Below are positions 746 to 29,046 of a DNA stretch of 64,000 bases, piece after piece; positions within the stretch are counted from its first letter, which is position 1, and each line of letters opens with the position of its first letter. A program made the position numbers and the translations under genes. The stretch comes from the human T2T-CHM13v2.0 reference genome, Homo sapiens. The notes beneath the pieces were generated by a model. That model worked only from the letters and a program-made list of their open reading frames with translations. It was not told where the DNA came from and searched no databases. The DNA is taken from assembly GCF_009914755.1 (NCBI RefSeq), contig NC_060935.1. One strand, 5' to 3'.

Positions 746-1147
746 CACTGTTGATAAGAAGAGGTTTAGATTCTTGTTCTGTGCCTTTTTGTTGTTGTGG
801 GGGGCATGTGAGTGCATATAATGAAATGGGATGACAGAAAATGTTTCAAATTGGGACATTAAGTGTATTACTCCCCAAACTGATGCTAAAGATGACATAT
901 GTTATTACAGGGCCCTGAAGAATTCAGAGTTGTTACTCTCTGTAACATAACTACCTTGAGGGCAGAGTAGGCCAGAGATATTGTAAGTGGGAGGATGGTG
1001 AATGTTTAAGGTGAAGTCATTTGAAACTTAAGAGGTGGGGACTGAGGCTAATGTCTCATGTCTCAGATACCCTGAACGGCAGTTATTCATTACTCACAAC
1101 ATAAAGCAATAAATAGTTAAGGCAGAGGGTAATTTAATAATCACATA

Positions 1148-5899: not shown

Positions 5900-6560
5900 G
5901 GCCTCCAGGTCTCACGTCACCGCTAGATCCCTCTTGACCCCCCCGCCAGAGAAGGAGGACCCTCCCGCGCCCTTTCGGAGCGTCGGTGGCCCGGCTCCGG
6001 CTCTGCGCTCCATCCTCCCAGCCAGCAGGTGCCCCCAGACCCCCGGCTCCTCCTCCGCCGCCGTCACAGCCTCGTCCTCCGCCTCTGGCTCCTCCGCTTC
6101 CTGTTGCCGCGATCCGGGCCGGGAGCTGCGGGCGCCCGGGCGCCCGAGGCTTCCCGGTGCGCTCCGCCAGGTAACCGCTCGGCGCGAACTGCCCGGCCGG
6201 GGTGGGCACGGGGCCCGCGCGGCCCATTGGTGGGGAAGGAGGCGGCAGAGGGCCCGGGCTCGCCTCCGAAGGGGAGCGGGCCTCCTCCTGCCTCGGACGC
6301 CCGAGGCCTTCCTGCGCCAGGCTGCGGCGCCAGCGGGATGCGGGGATAACGGTGCCTGGCTCCGGCTCTTGGTCCGGGCGTGGCCGAGCGTCGCAGGCAC
6401 CGCCGCGCGGAGATGCGATCGCCGTCCCTGCGAGGCCCCGGGGCCCGCGCTCGCCGCCAGCCACGCCTGCTCCAAGGCTCCTCCTCGCCAGTCTGGCCCT
6501 GGAACGGGAGAAACCAGGAGAGGAGCCTTGGACCTCTGAGCCGCGATGGCCTTCCAAATG
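5900..6560 (+). promoter_or_regulatory. TLCD5: CpG island / TLCD5 promoter
   Basis: High GC and CpG density upstream of the TLCD5 coding exons; CRE/E-box-like tcacgtca at 5912-5919. Confidence 0.85.
6040..6170 (+). other. TLCD5: TLCD5 non-coding exon 1 (start approximate)
   Basis: Strong donor CAG|GTAACC at 6170/6171 inside the CpG island. Confidence 0.65.
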
Positions 6561-8162: not shown

Positions 8163-8447
<285 letters not shown>

Positions 8448-8893
8448 TAGGGGATTTTCCCTTAGGGATTTATGATTTGGGGGTAGTCTTAGAAGTATGG
8501 GACTTTTAAACAGAATTTGTACAATACTGAAGACTAATTCCCATTATAATTTTGTATTGGAATCCTTATTCTTCTTCATTGTTAACTCTGATATTGTTTA
8601 TGTCACCTGTTGTTTCTGCTTTTCATAACTCTCTACTTTTAAAACAGATTTTAAATTGCTTGTTACAATTTAATTGGAAGTACAAAAACTATAAAGCCAG
8701 TATCAACATCTTCCACTACCACCCCCGAAAAGACAAAAATAGAACTGTATCATACATATTTTTGGCAACTTGCAACTTTTACTTGACTGTCTATTCAAAA
8801 GACAGCATCTTTCCATGTCTATGTTAAGAGGATGAGATGTTCCTTATCCTTTTTGTTACTAGATGTACAAGTGTTACTTTCAGAAGTATGCAA

Positions 8894-9182
8894 TTTTTTT
8901 TTTTTTGAGATGGAGTCTTGCTCTGTTGCCCAGGCTGGGGTGCAGTGGCTCAATCTCAGCAAGCTCCGCCTCCCAGGATCACGCCATTCTCCTGCCTCAG
9001 CCTCCCGAGTAGCTGGGACTACAGGTGCCCGCCACCATGCCCAGCTAATTTTTTTTGTATTTTTAGTAGAGATGGGGTTTCACTGTGTTAGTCAGGATGG
9101 TCTCGATCTCCTGACCTCGTGATCCACCCGCCTTGGCCTCCCAAAGTGCTGGGATTACAGGTGTGAGCCACCGCACCCGGCC
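8894..9182 (-). mobile_element. AluY-like
   Basis: Reverse Alu; TSD aagtatgcaa. Confidence 0.92.
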
Positions 9183-9206
9183 AAGTATGCAAAAATTTTA
9201 CCCCCT

Positions 9207-9478
9207 TGTATTAATTGGTTGGGGCTGCCATAACACAGTACCACAGAGTGGGTGGCTTAACCAGATGTTCATTTTCTTAAAATTCTAGAGGCTAGAAGTC
9301 GGAGTTCAAGTTGTTAGCAGGTTTGGTTTCTTCTGAGGCCTCTGTCCTTGGCTTGCACATGGCCGCTCTCCCACTGTGTCCTTCCATGGTCTCCCCTCTG
9401 TGTGTGTGTGTGTGTATGTGTGTGTGTTTGTATATGTATGCATATCTGTGTCCTAATCCCTTCTAAGGATAACAGTCA

Positions 9479-9516
<38 letters not shown>

Positions 9517-9564
9517 TTATGTATGCATACCTGTGTCCTAATCCCTTGTAAGGATAACAGTCAT

Positions 9565-9601
<37 letters not shown>

Positions 9602-9658
9602 ATGTGTTTGTATATGTATGCATATCTGTGTCCTAATCCCTTCTAAGGATAACAGTCA

Positions 9659-9698
<40 letters not shown>

Positions 9699-9748
9699 TT
9701 ATGTATGCATATCTGTGTCCTAATCCCTTCTAAGGATAACAGTCATAT

Positions 9749-9781
<33 letters not shown>

Positions 9782-9923
9782 TTGTATATGTATGCGTATC
9801 TGTGTCCTAATCCCTTCTAAGGATAACAGTCATATTGTGTGTGTGTGTGTGTGTGTGTGCGTGTATGTGTTTGTATATGTATGCATATCTGTGTCCTAAT
9901 CCCTTCTAAGGATAACAGTCATA

Positions 9924-9955
<32 letters not shown>

Positions 9956-10003
9956 TTATGTATGCATATCTGTGTCCTAATCCCTTCTAAGGATAACAGT
10001 CAT

Positions 10004-10042
<39 letters not shown>

Positions 10043-10176
10043 TTGTATATGTATGCGTATCTGTGTCCTAATCCCTTCTAAGGATAACAGTCATATTGTG
10101 TGTGTGTGTGTGTATGTGTATGTGTTTGTATATGTATGCATATCTGTGTCCTAATCCCTTCTAAGGATAACAGTCA

Positions 10177-10214
<38 letters not shown>

Positions 10215-10342
10215 TTATGTATGCATACCTGTGTCCTAATCCCTTGTAAGGATAACAGTCATTTTGTGTGTGTGTGTGTGTGCGTGTATGTTTGTATATG
10301 TATGCATATCTGTGTCCTAATCCCTTCTAAGGATAACAGTCA

Positions 10343-10378
<36 letters not shown>

Positions 10379-10427
10379 TTATGTATGCATACCTGTGTCC
10401 TAATCCCTTCTAAGGATAACAGTCATA

Positions 10428-10459
<32 letters not shown>

Positions 10460-10664
10460 TTATGTATGCATACCTGTGTCCTAATCCCTTCTAAGGATAA
10501 CAGTCATATTGTGTGTGTGTGTGTGCGCGTGTATGTTTGTATATGTATGCATATCTGTGTCCTAATCCCTTCTAAGGATAACAGTCATAGTGTGTGTGTG
10601 TGTGTGTGTGTATGTTTATGTATGCATATCTGTGTCCTAATCCCTTCTAAGGATAACAGTCATA

Positions 10665-10695
<31 letters not shown>

Positions 10696-10825
10696 TGTAT
10701 GTTTATGTATGCATATCTGTGTCCTAATCCCTTCTAAGGATAACAGTCATAGTGTGTGTGTGTGTGTATGTGTTTGTATATGTATGCGTATCTGTGTCCT
10801 TATCCCTTCTAAGGATAACAGTCAT

Positions 10826-10862
<37 letters not shown>

Positions 10863-11046
10863 ATGCATATCTGTGTCCTAATCCCTTTTAAGTATAACAG
10901 TCATATTGGATTACTCTAATTACCCCATTTTAACTTGATTACCTCTTTAAAGACCTTATTTTCAAATACACTCACATTCTGAGGTACTACCAGTTAAGGG
11001 CTTTAACGTGAATTTGGGGAGGGAGGACACAATGCAGCCCTTAACT
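9207..11046 (-). mobile_element. MLT1B-like MaLR solo LTR expanded by an internal VNTR
   Basis: gggctgccataacacagtaccacag...tctgaggcctct on the left and cattttaacttgattacctctttaaagacc...gacacaatgcagccc on the right match the recalled MLT1B consensus. Confidence 0.85.
9398..10908. repeat. VNTR, 18 units of ~84 bp: (TG)n plus constant ...atgcatatctgtgtcctaatcccttctaaggataacagtcata
   Basis: 18 copies of the core counted by hand. Confidence 0.97.
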
Positions 11047-11677
11047 CCCCTGGAATATAATTTTTAAAATATTTCTTTAGCTTTTCTTACTGAATTTCTG
11101 AGTTTCCCCCCAAACTGTCAAACTAATGAAACCAACTGTTACGCTTTGTGTTTTATGTGAAGATTCTAAATGGTTTCAAATATGTCAGGTCCTTAAAACC
11201 TATGTTCCTGGACATGAGCACACACTAACTTTTGGGGCCCTCTCCAGAATCTACTTTCAGGATGGGTTAAGACCACTGAGTGTTCAATAACGTAACCCAT
11301 TAAGCTGAGAAAAAAATCTGACATTCAGGAAACAATGATTCAAGAGTCTGGAAATAAACCTTTAGCAGAGTAAAAAAAAAAAATAAAGTTTAGGATTTTA
11401 ATTGAAGGAACAAAATAATTGGATTTTATGCTGTTCCGCGGAGAGGATACTGAGATTATTGCCTGTGTTCATTGAAGGATGCAAACTCATTGAAGTCTGA
11501 TTCATCAGAACAGCATTTCCTGGGGTCTGAACATCGTTTAGTTTGATAAAGACCTAGATTTTATATTTTAGTCTTTCTTTGGTCCTCATTAAAAAGCATG
11601 TGCCTGCTATTGTTTTTGTTTCTTTAGTGTCTAGTAAGGTTTGAAAGACAACAACATAGGATCCCTGTGCAAGGTAA

Positions 11678-12262
<585 letters not shown>

Positions 12263-28861: not shown

Positions 28862-28931
28862 TCTCCCTTTCTTTCTTTCTTTCCTTCCTTCCTTCCTTCC
28901 TTCCTTCCTTCCTTCCTTCCTTCCTTCCTTC

Positions 28932-28985
<54 letters not shown>

Positions 28986-29046
28986 CTTTCTTTTTCTTTC
29001 TTTCTTTCTCTCTGTCTCTCTCTGTTTCTCTCTCTCTCTCTCTCTC

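What the first reader, a model, noticed from the sequence alone, without database searches (positions are those of the whole stretch)
9398..10908. VNTR born inside an MLT1B LTR, with constant-repeat/variable-spacer architecture
Seen: 18 near-identical ~55-bp cores separated by (TG)n tracts of different lengths, i.e. a microsatellite nested in a minisatellite nested in an LTR. The first and last units run seamlessly into MLT1B sequence, and the last unit is the most diverged (cccttttaagtataac). Inference: a single LTR segment was amplified recently, probably seeded by the TG tract. It now makes up almost half of TLCD5 intron 2 and is likely length-polymorphic and poorly resolved by short reads. 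The TMEM136/ARHGEF12 region is a recalled association locus for intraocular pressure, glaucoma and exfoliation syndrome, so an untyped VNTR is a candidate functional variant.
Basis: partly seen in the sequence, partly recalled or inferred. Interest (0 to 1): 0.7.

Follow-up and report, generated by a model that had tools for sequence, protein, structure and literature searches.

The report
Tandem repeat inside an ancient LTR
An 80-base piece of a very old retrovirus-like end sequence (a solo LTR) in an intron of TLCD5 has been copied head to tail 18 times, an ordinary kind of transposon-derived minisatellite with no shown effect on disease.

Summary
Window 9399-10906 is an 18-unit tandem array with a period near 81 bases. 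Each unit has a 49-base core with 0-4 changes and a spacer of 26-46 bases, mostly (TG)n.

The array lies in one solo LTR, 9207-11046, on the + strand, flanked by a perfect 5-base duplication CCCCT. The LTR is collinear end to end with a copy that print names MLT1B, upstream of PPCS. It is therefore an ERVL-MaLR LTR of the MLT1 group. Sub-family B fits, but A and C were not excluded.

Divergence from other copies gives at least about 60-100 Myr. Print dates MLT1 to early placental mammals.

In 17 of 17 other copies, and in the labelled one, the amplified stretch occurs once. All 18 units share two bases found in 0 of 11 aligned copies. The array therefore grew in place, long after insertion. 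It grew partly by three-unit blocks.

The glaucoma and exfoliation locus context is in print. Length polymorphism, linkage disequilibrium and any expression effect could not be tested, and nine locus-directed searches found no report of this array. Verdict: a new member of a known kind, of modest interest.

The parts
9202..9206 (.). Left copy of the 5-base target-site duplication (CCCCT)
   Evidence: It is identical to 11047-11051. Only 1 of 25 offset pairs within +/-2 bases match.
9207..11046 (+). Solo LTR of the ERVL-MaLR MLT1 group, consistent with MLT1B. It is 1840 bases with the array inside, in the same orientation as TLCD5.
   Evidence: Matches to 17 fetched genome copies start at 9202-9211 and mostly end at 11045. 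Both ends coincide with the ends of the print-labelled MLT1B copy upstream of PPCS. There were 2172 and 2245 first-look candidates genome-wide for the two arms.
9207..9398 (+). 5' arm of the LTR (192 bases), single copy
   Evidence: The top 39 genome matches are 76-83% identical. The match to labelled MLT1B is 72.3% over 202 columns, E 4e-32.
9399..10906 (+). 18-unit minisatellite. Each unit is a (TG)n run, a lead of type A or B, and a 49-base core.
   Evidence: TRF gives period 81, 18.0 copies and score 2192. The core is unique to this locus.
10907..11046 (+). 3' arm of the LTR (140 bases), single copy
   Evidence: The top 39 genome matches are 72-84% identical and mostly end at window 11045-11048. 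The match to labelled MLT1B is 64.8% over 199 columns, E 3e-16.
11047..11051 (.). Right copy of the target-site duplication (CCCCT)

Best explanation
This is a transposon-derived minisatellite that arose in place.

Shown:
- A MaLR element of the MLT1 group inserted in the sense orientation into what is now TLCD5 intron 2.
- It is now a solo LTR with a 5-base target duplication.
- One stretch of about 80 bases of that LTR is present 18 times. It runs from a TG-rich patch to the bases just before the LTR's GGATTA stretch.

Inferred order of events:
1. The short TG-rich patch that the family carries grew by slippage into a (TG)n microsatellite.
2. A first duplication joined the end of the stretch (...CATATTG) to the TG run, through 2-3 bases of microhomology.
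3. Unequal exchange or replication slippage between the now repeated units raised the number to 18. Part of this growth was by copying blocks of three units.
4. The TG run in each unit went on changing length by itself, giving units of 75-95 bases.
5. The outermost units escaped homogenisation and kept private changes.

The most likely present role is none that is selected. It is intronic filler that puts 18 UG runs and repeated splice-like motifs into the TLCD5 pre-mRNA. Any effect on TLCD5 or its neighbours is unproven.
For: Array and units.

Solo LTR: both arms belong to one dispersed family (2172 and 2245 first-look candidates). The flanks carry identical CCCCT.

One stretch amplified:
- In 17 of 17 fetched copies both arms match on one strand, and the unit matches one place only.
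- In 11 of 17 the two arm matches abut or overlap by 15 bases or fewer.
- In the other 6, one match is partial or the two lie 28-340 bases apart.
- In the labelled MLT1B copy they lie 12 bases apart.
- For L011, L012, L013, L016 and L017 the cores of unit 1 and unit 18 map to the same place.

Grown in place after divergence: two bases are present in 18 of 18 units and in 0 of 11 aligned copies. They are the second C of AATCC and the middle A of ATAACAG.

TG seed: the 11 aligned copies have only a 7-11-base TG-rich patch at that point, and none has a long run.

Block growth: mean distance between units is 2.33 at lag 3, with 5 of 15 pairs identical. At lags 1, 2 and 4-7 it is 3.44-4.64, with 0-1 identical pairs. 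Units that are identical outside the TG run differ in TG length.

Edge effect: unit 18 has a T where unit 1 and 10 of 11 other copies have G. Units 17 and 18 carry 1 and 3 private core changes.

An independent small parallel: a related LTR on chr14 has the same region twice, with (TG)n in each copy, bounded by a CATATT direct repeat.

The kind is known. At least 23% of human minisatellites and satellites derive from transposable elements (PMC3389668, abstract and passages).

No function seen:
- RefSeq lists no exon or functional element over the array.
- Rfam gives nothing at gathering score.
- The ORFs are stop-free TG frames.
Against: The order of events is inferred from one genome. No orthologous sequence from another species or person was available.

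The microhomology at the first junction is only 2-3 bases, so the initiating event is not pinned down.

PMC3389668 states that tandem repeats arise more readily from younger elements, whereas this LTR is old.

Neutrality is a default and not a result. The array lies in a known glaucoma and exfoliation locus. An imputed-expression test implicates TMEM136. An intronic VNTR at another glaucoma locus, TMCO1, is reported as associated (passages of PMC11875260).

Four units fold as RNA better than all 200 shuffles.
Confidence: 0.85

Rival explanations
1. The array was already present in the source element and arrived with the LTR at insertion, as is described for the internal repeats of LTR12.
For: PMC3389668 (passages) describes LTR12 repeats that existed in the original LTR and spread by transposition. 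One other copy, on chr14, also has the region twice.
Against: - 17 of 17 fetched copies and the labelled MLT1B copy have the stretch once.
- No other array of 3 or more units with this core exists in the genome at exact 8-mers spaced 55-85 bases. The only non-local hit, on chr21, is unrelated, and the reversed controls gave 12 and 9 hits.
- The chr14 duplication has different boundaries.
- All 18 units share two bases that 0 of 11 other copies have.
- Units differ by 3.8% on average, against 20-30% between LTR copies.
Confidence: 0.03
2. The array is a working regulatory element of the host. Its 18 UG runs would bind UG-repeat RNA-binding proteins such as TDP-43 on the TLCD5 pre-mRNA, or its alternating purine-pyrimidine runs would alter chromatin. 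Array length would then tune TLCD5 or ARHGEF12 output.
For: - The array has 18 pure TG runs of 14-32 bases on the transcribed strand.
- It is in the sense orientation, 957 bases after exon 2 and 818 bases before exon 3 (given exon table).
- TMEM136 is significant in an imputed-expression test for glaucoma.
- There is a precedent in the intronic TMCO1 VNTR.
- That UG runs bind TDP-43 is recalled established knowledge from CFTR intron 8. No call tested it.
Against: - No annotated functional element or alternative exon lies in the array.
- No paper holds both TMEM136 and TDP-43, or TMEM136 with VNTR in this sense, tandem repeat or structural variant.
- No conservation or expression data could be consulted.
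Confidence: 0.1
3. The units encode small-RNA hairpins, making a young intronic microRNA-like cluster akin to the TG-rich mir-297 family.
For: - There are 12 Rfam matches to mir-297 along the array.
- Units 3 and 11, both of the type with a GCG interruption, fold into 16-17-bp hairpins with z -4.6 and -4.4. None of 200 shuffles fold as well.
- A three-unit stretch gives z -4.84.
Against: - All 12 matches score 23.0-28.1 bits against a gathering score of 90, with E 0.05-0.85.
- The stems are short and rich in G-U pairs.
- The four other units folded gave z -1.7, -2.0, -2.7 and +0.2.
- Only 6 of the 18 units were folded singly.
- The likeness is what TG/TA-rich low-complexity sequence would give.
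Confidence: 0.02
4. The array, or its unit count, is an assembly artefact.
For: Nothing was seen here. It is listed because arrays of 75-95-base units with TG runs are hard to assemble.
Against: The units carry an ordered pattern of variants (types A and B, three-unit blocks, private edge changes) that reads as a real history. The source is a telomere-to-telomere reference. It cannot be tested with these tools.
Confidence: 0.02

Closest known systems
Transposon-derived minisatellites (Ahmed and Liang 2012, PMC3389668)
   Same: An internal stretch of a transposable element is repeated head to tail at a single locus and expanded by local duplication of units. The chr14 parallel fits their model of a stretch bounded by short direct repeats.
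   Different: That paper reports such repeats arising more from younger elements, and this LTR is among the old ones. Here a microsatellite is nested in every unit. The first junction shows only 2-3 bases of microhomology. Their locus list is in a supplementary table that I could not see, so this array may or may not be listed there.
MLT1B solo LTRs of the ERVL-MaLR group (for example the copy about 6 kb upstream of PPCS; PMC3836709)
   Same: The LTR is collinear over its full length, both ends coincide, and the length without the extra units is similar: 192 + about 80 + 140 bases here against about 403 there. The target duplication is 5 bases.
   Different: This copy carries 17 extra units of one stretch. 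No promoter use or DUX4 binding was examined here.
Internal tandem repeats of LTR12 (passages of PMC3389668)
   Same: A tandem repeat inside an LTR.
   Different: Those repeats are said to have existed in the source LTR and to occur at many loci. This one is single-locus and post-insertion.
Intronic 28-bp VNTR of TMCO1 associated with glaucoma (seen only as cited in passages of PMC11875260; the original paper was not read)
   Same: An intronic VNTR at a transposon, there an Alu tail, inside a leading glaucoma locus.
   Different: An association with array length is reported there. None is reported or tested for this array.
mir-297 family (Rfam RF04217)
   Same: TG/TA-rich hairpins arranged in tandem.
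   Different: Scores are 23-28 bits against a gathering score of 90, so it is not a member.
Repeat-spacer arrays of the CRISPR type
   Same: Constant repeats separated by stretches of varying length.
   Different: The 'spacers' are (TG)n runs with two lead variants and not unique captured sequences. The host is human. The likeness is in layout alone.

Membership tests
ERVL-MaLR LTR, MLT1 group | Dispersed in many diverged copies in the genome | tested here: met
   There were 2172 and 2245 first-look candidates for the two arms. The 39 scored non-self matches are 76-83% identical for the 5' arm and 72-84% for the 3' arm. Print counts 18,004 MLT1B instances (PMC3836709 Table 1).
ERVL-MaLR LTR, MLT1 group | Homology over the whole LTR to a copy that print names as a member | tested here: met
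   The only LTR-like match within the fetched 30 kb around the PPCS start lies 6.6 kb upstream, as print says. The 5' arm matches at E 4e-32 and the 3' arm at E 3e-16. Both ends coincide with window 9207 and 11045.
ERVL-MaLR LTR, MLT1 group | LTR termini TG...CA and a short target-site duplication (the expected 5 bases are recalled, not from a call) | tested here: met
   The LTR starts with TGT at 9207 and has identical CCCCT on both sides. The 3' end reads ...AACT rather than ...CA, so that terminus is decayed.
ERVL-MaLR LTR, MLT1 group | Solo LTR: no internal region beside it | tested here: met
The target duplication directly flanks the single LTR.
Sub-family MLT1B specifically | Closer to MLT1B than to other MLT1 sub-families | tested here: inconclusive
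   The LTR matches labelled MLT1B end to end. Apart from TG microsatellites, it gives no match at E <= 1e-4 in the stretches where print places an MLT1E1A (NT5C1B) and an MLT1D (DDX10). Other copies of this kind give only weak matches of up to 106 columns there. No labelled MLT1A, A0, A1 or C copy and no family library was available.
Minisatellite / VNTR | Head-to-tail units of 10-100 bases, two or more copies | tested here: met
   18 units of 75-95 bases.
Minisatellite / VNTR | Copy number varies between individuals | not testable with these tools
   Only one human genome is reachable. Nine locus-directed paper searches found no genotyping of it. Supplementary catalogues are closed.
Transposon-derived tandem repeat | The unit is homologous to a transposon and the array is embedded in that transposon | tested here: met
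mir-297 microRNA family (Rfam RF04217) | Score at or above the curated gathering score | tested here: not met
   12 matches of 23.0-28.1 bits against a gathering score of 90.
Causal regulatory VNTR of the 11q23.3 glaucoma/exfoliation locus | Array length associated with trait or expression beyond nearby SNPs | not testable with these tools
   No population data were available. Print gives SNP and gene-level signals only.

The most novel reading that the evidence does not exclude
The array is a common length polymorphism that short reads do not type. Its length sets how many UG runs sit in the TLCD5 pre-mRNA, or how many alternating purine-pyrimidine runs sit in the chromatin. That changes TLCD5 or ARHGEF12 output and is the causal variant behind the exfoliation syndrome and intraocular pressure signals at 11q23.3, in the manner reported for the TMCO1 VNTR.
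Probability: 0.04. Interest if true: 0.8.

Novelty: new member of a known kind. Interest (0 to 1): 0.3.

Why it matters
As it stands, this is a clear worked example of how an old LTR can seed a minisatellite. The steps are a TG-rich patch, a microsatellite, a first duplication, and then block-wise growth.

It is also a reminder that 1.5 kb of a disease-locus intron is probably untyped in array and short-read studies.

It would matter far more if array length proved polymorphic and tracked the glaucoma or exfoliation signal. Nothing here shows that.

Tried and rejected
Inherited array. I looked for the same array elsewhere in the genome.
- The 35-base core at up to 3 mismatches is found once outside the locus.
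- Two cores spaced 55-85 bases apart are found at one other locus, chr14, with two units only.
- Three cores so spaced are found nowhere else that is related.
The idea was rejected.

RNA gene. The Rfam scan at E <= 1 over 8400-11800 gave only sub-threshold mir-297, SCARNA7 and sno_ZL1 matches in the array, plus SRP and mir-1268 matches that belong to the Alu. Folding gave notable z-scores for two of the six units folded. Rejected as a family member and kept as a low-probability rival.

Coding. Five mechanical ORFs of 67-180 aa overlap the LTR, four with GTG starts and one with TTG. They are what stop-free TG frames give. Rejected.

Naming the sub-family. There is no repeat library here. Of the ten searches, one paired TMEM136 with MLT1B and found nothing. 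One on MLT1 names and age led to PMC3836709 and its labelled MLT1B, E1A and D copies, but to no labelled A or C copy. The founding MaLR paper was not held. Sub-family B therefore stays 'consistent'.

Print on this array:
- TMEM136 + VNTR gave one paper, whose VNTR mentions concern another gene.
- TLCD5 + tandem repeat gave one irrelevant maize paper, seen in the listing only.
- TMEM136 + tandem repeat, + structural variant and + TDP-43 each gave 0.
- PMC10776627 and PMC11701250 hold none of TMEM136, TLCD5 or ARHGEF12 in their main text.
- PMC11875260 holds none of TMEM136, ARHGEF12, TLCD5 or chr11.
- Supplementary tables were not opened. Those of PMC3389668, PMC11701250 and the VNTR catalogues might list this locus.

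Rows dropped:
- Alignment A1 used 11 of the 17 copies. L002, L003, L008, L009, L011 and L015 were left out because their matches at the segment were partial or interrupted.
- The K2P group means use L001-L010 and L011-L016. L017 was chosen through the core and is left out of the means.
- Only the best match per arm per locus was counted.

Slip in my notes: note 4 says 13 mir-297 matches. The table has 12.
Full report
1. The observation.

Tandem Repeats Finder reports one array at window 9399-10906. It has period 81, 18.0 copies, 88% matches, 7% indels and score 2192. It is the strongest array in the whole window. The only other array above score 150 is a (CTTT)n run at 28867-29045.

I took the 49-base core of the first unit by coordinate as a yardstick. 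A script then finds 18 cores with 0-4 substitutions, separated by 26-46 bases. Units are 75-95 bases long and sum to 1507. Each spacer holds a pure (TG) run of 14-32 bases.

Seven of the 49 core positions vary. The mean pairwise difference is 1.88 of 49 (3.8%), and 23 of 153 pairs are identical.

A 35-base piece of the core occurs 18 times here. At up to 3 mismatches it occurs once elsewhere in the 3.1-Gb genome, and the reversed control gives none. The description is right and far beyond chance.

Two refinements apply:
- The 'variable spacers' are TG runs followed by one of two main leads. The order of unit types is A B A B A A B A A B A B B A B B A, then a last unit without a lead.
- The last unit is tied for most changed. 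Unit 10 has 4 changes against unit 1, and units 2 and 18 have 3. Unit 18 does carry the most private changes.

2. The remnant is real.

The 210 bases before the array and the 248 bases from the last core onward each recall a dispersed family. There were 2172 and 2245 first-look candidates. The 39 scored non-self matches are 76-83% and 72-84% identical.

I fetched 17 copies and compared the two arms with them, always apart.
- Matches begin at window 9202-9211, mostly 9206 or 9207, and mostly end at 11045.
- The sequence there starts with TGT at 9207.
- The five bases before 9207 and after 11046 are both CCCCT. Only 1 of 25 offset pairs within two bases match.

This is a single LTR with its own target-site duplication, that is, a solo LTR. 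It lies on the + strand, the same strand as TLCD5. It sits in the intron between the exons ending at 8442 and starting at 11724 (given table).

An Alu on the minus strand (8885-9188) lies 18 bases upstream, with its own direct repeat. It is not inside the LTR.

3. Family.

No repeat library is on hand, so I used print. Passages of PMC3836709 name three labelled copies:
- an MLT1B about 6 kb upstream of PPCS, shared by primates, rodents, carnivores and bats;
- an MLT1E1A about 6 kb upstream of NT5C1B;
- an MLT1D at the first exon of DDX10.
The paper files all of them under ERVL-MaLR.

Using the gene table I fetched those neighbourhoods. The only LTR-like match in the fetched 30 kb around the PPCS start lies 6.6 kb upstream, on the minus strand.
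- The window's 5' arm matches it over 9207-9404 (72.3%, E 4e-32).
- The 3' arm matches over 10861-11045 (64.8%, E 3e-16).
- The two ends coincide with the ends found above.
- The two matches lie 12 bases apart in that copy.
- That copy in turn matches all 17 fetched copies, 13 of them in one stretch of 367-425 columns, at 66-79% identity.

In the NT5C1B and DDX10 stretches the window's arms match nothing at E <= 1e-4 except TG microsatellites. Other copies of this kind give only weak matches of up to 106 columns at the expected places.

The LTR therefore belongs to the MLT1 group of ERVL-MaLR, which PMC5753468 lists under ERV3/MaLR (passages). Sub-family B fits. A and C could not be excluded because no labelled copy of them was available. 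Naming did not need inner genes, and none was sought.

4. Age.

The less biased comparisons pair each arm with copies that had been chosen through the other arm.
- Kimura two-parameter distances average 0.259 (n = 10) and 0.305 (n = 6).
- That is 0.13-0.15 per lineage.
- At rates of 2.2e-9 and 1.5e-9 per site per year, the age is 59-69 and 86-102 Myr. The rates are recalled and are an assumption.

These figures are lower bounds. The copies were among the closest of more than 2000, and local alignments trim diverged ends.

Print agrees:
- MLT1 members other than A1 and C2 are widespread in placental mammals and absent from opossum (passages of PMC10735291).
- The labelled MLT1B copy is put at 90 Myr or more by synteny.
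- MLT1B ranks as intermediate in an interruption-based chronology (passage of PMC1914374).

The orthologue of this particular copy in other mammals could not be examined.

5. How the array arose.

In 17 of 17 copies both arms match on one strand and the unit maps to one place.
- In 11 of 17 the arm matches abut or overlap by 15 bases or fewer.
- In the other six, one match is partial or the two lie 28-340 bases apart.

In the alignment of the two window pieces with 11 copies, the other copies carry the stretch once. It runs from a 7-11-base TG-rich patch to ...CATATTG, just before GGATTA.

All 18 units share two bases that 0 of 11 copies have. The amplification therefore happened at this locus, after the copy had diverged.

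None of the 11 copies has a long TG run at the patch, so the microsatellite also grew here.

The junction between units reads ...CATATT-GTG or ...CATA-GTG. This leaves only 2-3 bases of microhomology for the first duplication.

A related LTR on chr14 shows the same region exactly twice, each copy with its own TG run. It is bounded by the direct repeat CATATT. That fits the flanking-direct-repeat model quoted in PMC3389668. It also suggests that this part of the LTR is prone to such events.

Later growth was partly by blocks.
- At a lag of three units the mean distance is 2.33 and 5 of 15 pairs are identical.
- At the other lags from 1 to 7 the mean is 3.44-4.64, with 0-1 identical pairs.
- Units identical outside the TG run differ in TG length, so slippage in the TG runs is faster than point change.

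The 8 CpGs of the array sit in interruptions shared by block-related units.

The 3.8% mean core difference would correspond to roughly 10-20 Myr if units evolved independently. They do not, so this is only a scale for the coalescence of the present units. It is not a date for the first duplication.

6. What it does.

Nothing points to a selected role.
- RefSeq has no exon or functional element over the array.
- Rfam gives nothing at gathering score. There are 12 mir-297 matches of 23-28 bits against 90.
- The ORFs are artefacts of TG frames.

As RNA, two of the six units folded singly form a 16-17-bp G-U-rich hairpin, with z -4.6 and -4.4. The other four gave -1.7, -2.0, -2.7 and +0.2.

The transcribed strand carries 18 UG runs. 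From recalled knowledge, such runs bind TDP-43, but this was not tested, and no paper pairs TMEM136 with TDP-43.

7. The disease context.

The recalled associations are in print:
- TMEM136 rs11827818 for exfoliation syndrome and ARHGEF12 rs58073046 for pressure and glaucoma (passages of PMC7823611).
- rs11827818 is described as within the known ARHGEF12 locus, and TMEM136 is significant in an imputed-expression test (passages of PMC5814451).
- rs11827818 is used in a risk score (passages of PMC12472000).
- An intronic VNTR at TMCO1 is a precedent (passages of PMC11875260).

None of these mentions a repeat at this locus. Nine locus-directed searches found no report of this array.

Polymorphism, linkage disequilibrium and expression effects remain untested. 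Supplementary catalogues that might list the array were closed.

8. Verdict.

The array is a real, well-described structure. The remnant is a real and old LTR of the MLT1 group of ERVL-MaLR, consistent with MLT1B, of the order of 100 Myr. Transposon-derived minisatellites are a known and common kind, at least 23% of minisatellites and satellites (PMC3389668). This is a new member of that kind. Interest is modest unless population data tie array length to the locus's associations.

Noticed in passing
window 8885-9188 (- strand): A full-length Alu lies 18 bases upstream of the LTR, flanked by the direct repeat AAGTATGCAA. It accounts for the sub-threshold Rfam SRP and mir-1268 matches.
   Followed up: partly
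window 28867-29045: A (CTTT)n run of 44.5 copies (91% matches) lies inside ARHGEF12. It is a long tetranucleotide repeat and likely to vary in length.
   Followed up: no
L018 (chr14:84096300-84097700), about 655-775 on the - strand: A related LTR has the same region exactly twice, each copy with its own (TG)n run, bounded by CATATT direct repeats. It is a two-unit parallel of the 18-unit array.
   Followed up: partly
L018 about 880-1100 (- strand reading): A different LTR sits in the 5' part of the chr14 copy. By recall it looks like the THE1/MST kind. It would be one case of a younger MaLR nested in the older one. The name was not tested.
   Followed up: no
window 9207-11046: The RefSeq 'masked_repeat' rows for this chromosome cover the Alu (8885-9188) but neither the LTR nor the array. 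Anyone relying on that masking would treat both as unique sequence.
   Followed up: no
window 9566-9660, 9835-9923, 10264-10344, 10509-10589: These four units carry a GCG or GCGCG interruption of the TG run. The two that were folded form 16-17-bp hairpins as RNA, with z about -4.5 and 0 of 200 shuffles folding as well. The interruptions create CpGs shared by block-related units.
   Followed up: partly
window 10349-10891 (+): A mechanical ORF of 180 aa with a GTG start runs through six to seven units. It is an artefact of stop-free TG frames and not a gene.
   Followed up: yes
window 6046-6335 and 6406-6465: RefSeq lists two 'silencer' elements at the TLCD5 first exon. They are the only annotated functional elements near the finding.
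   Followed up: no
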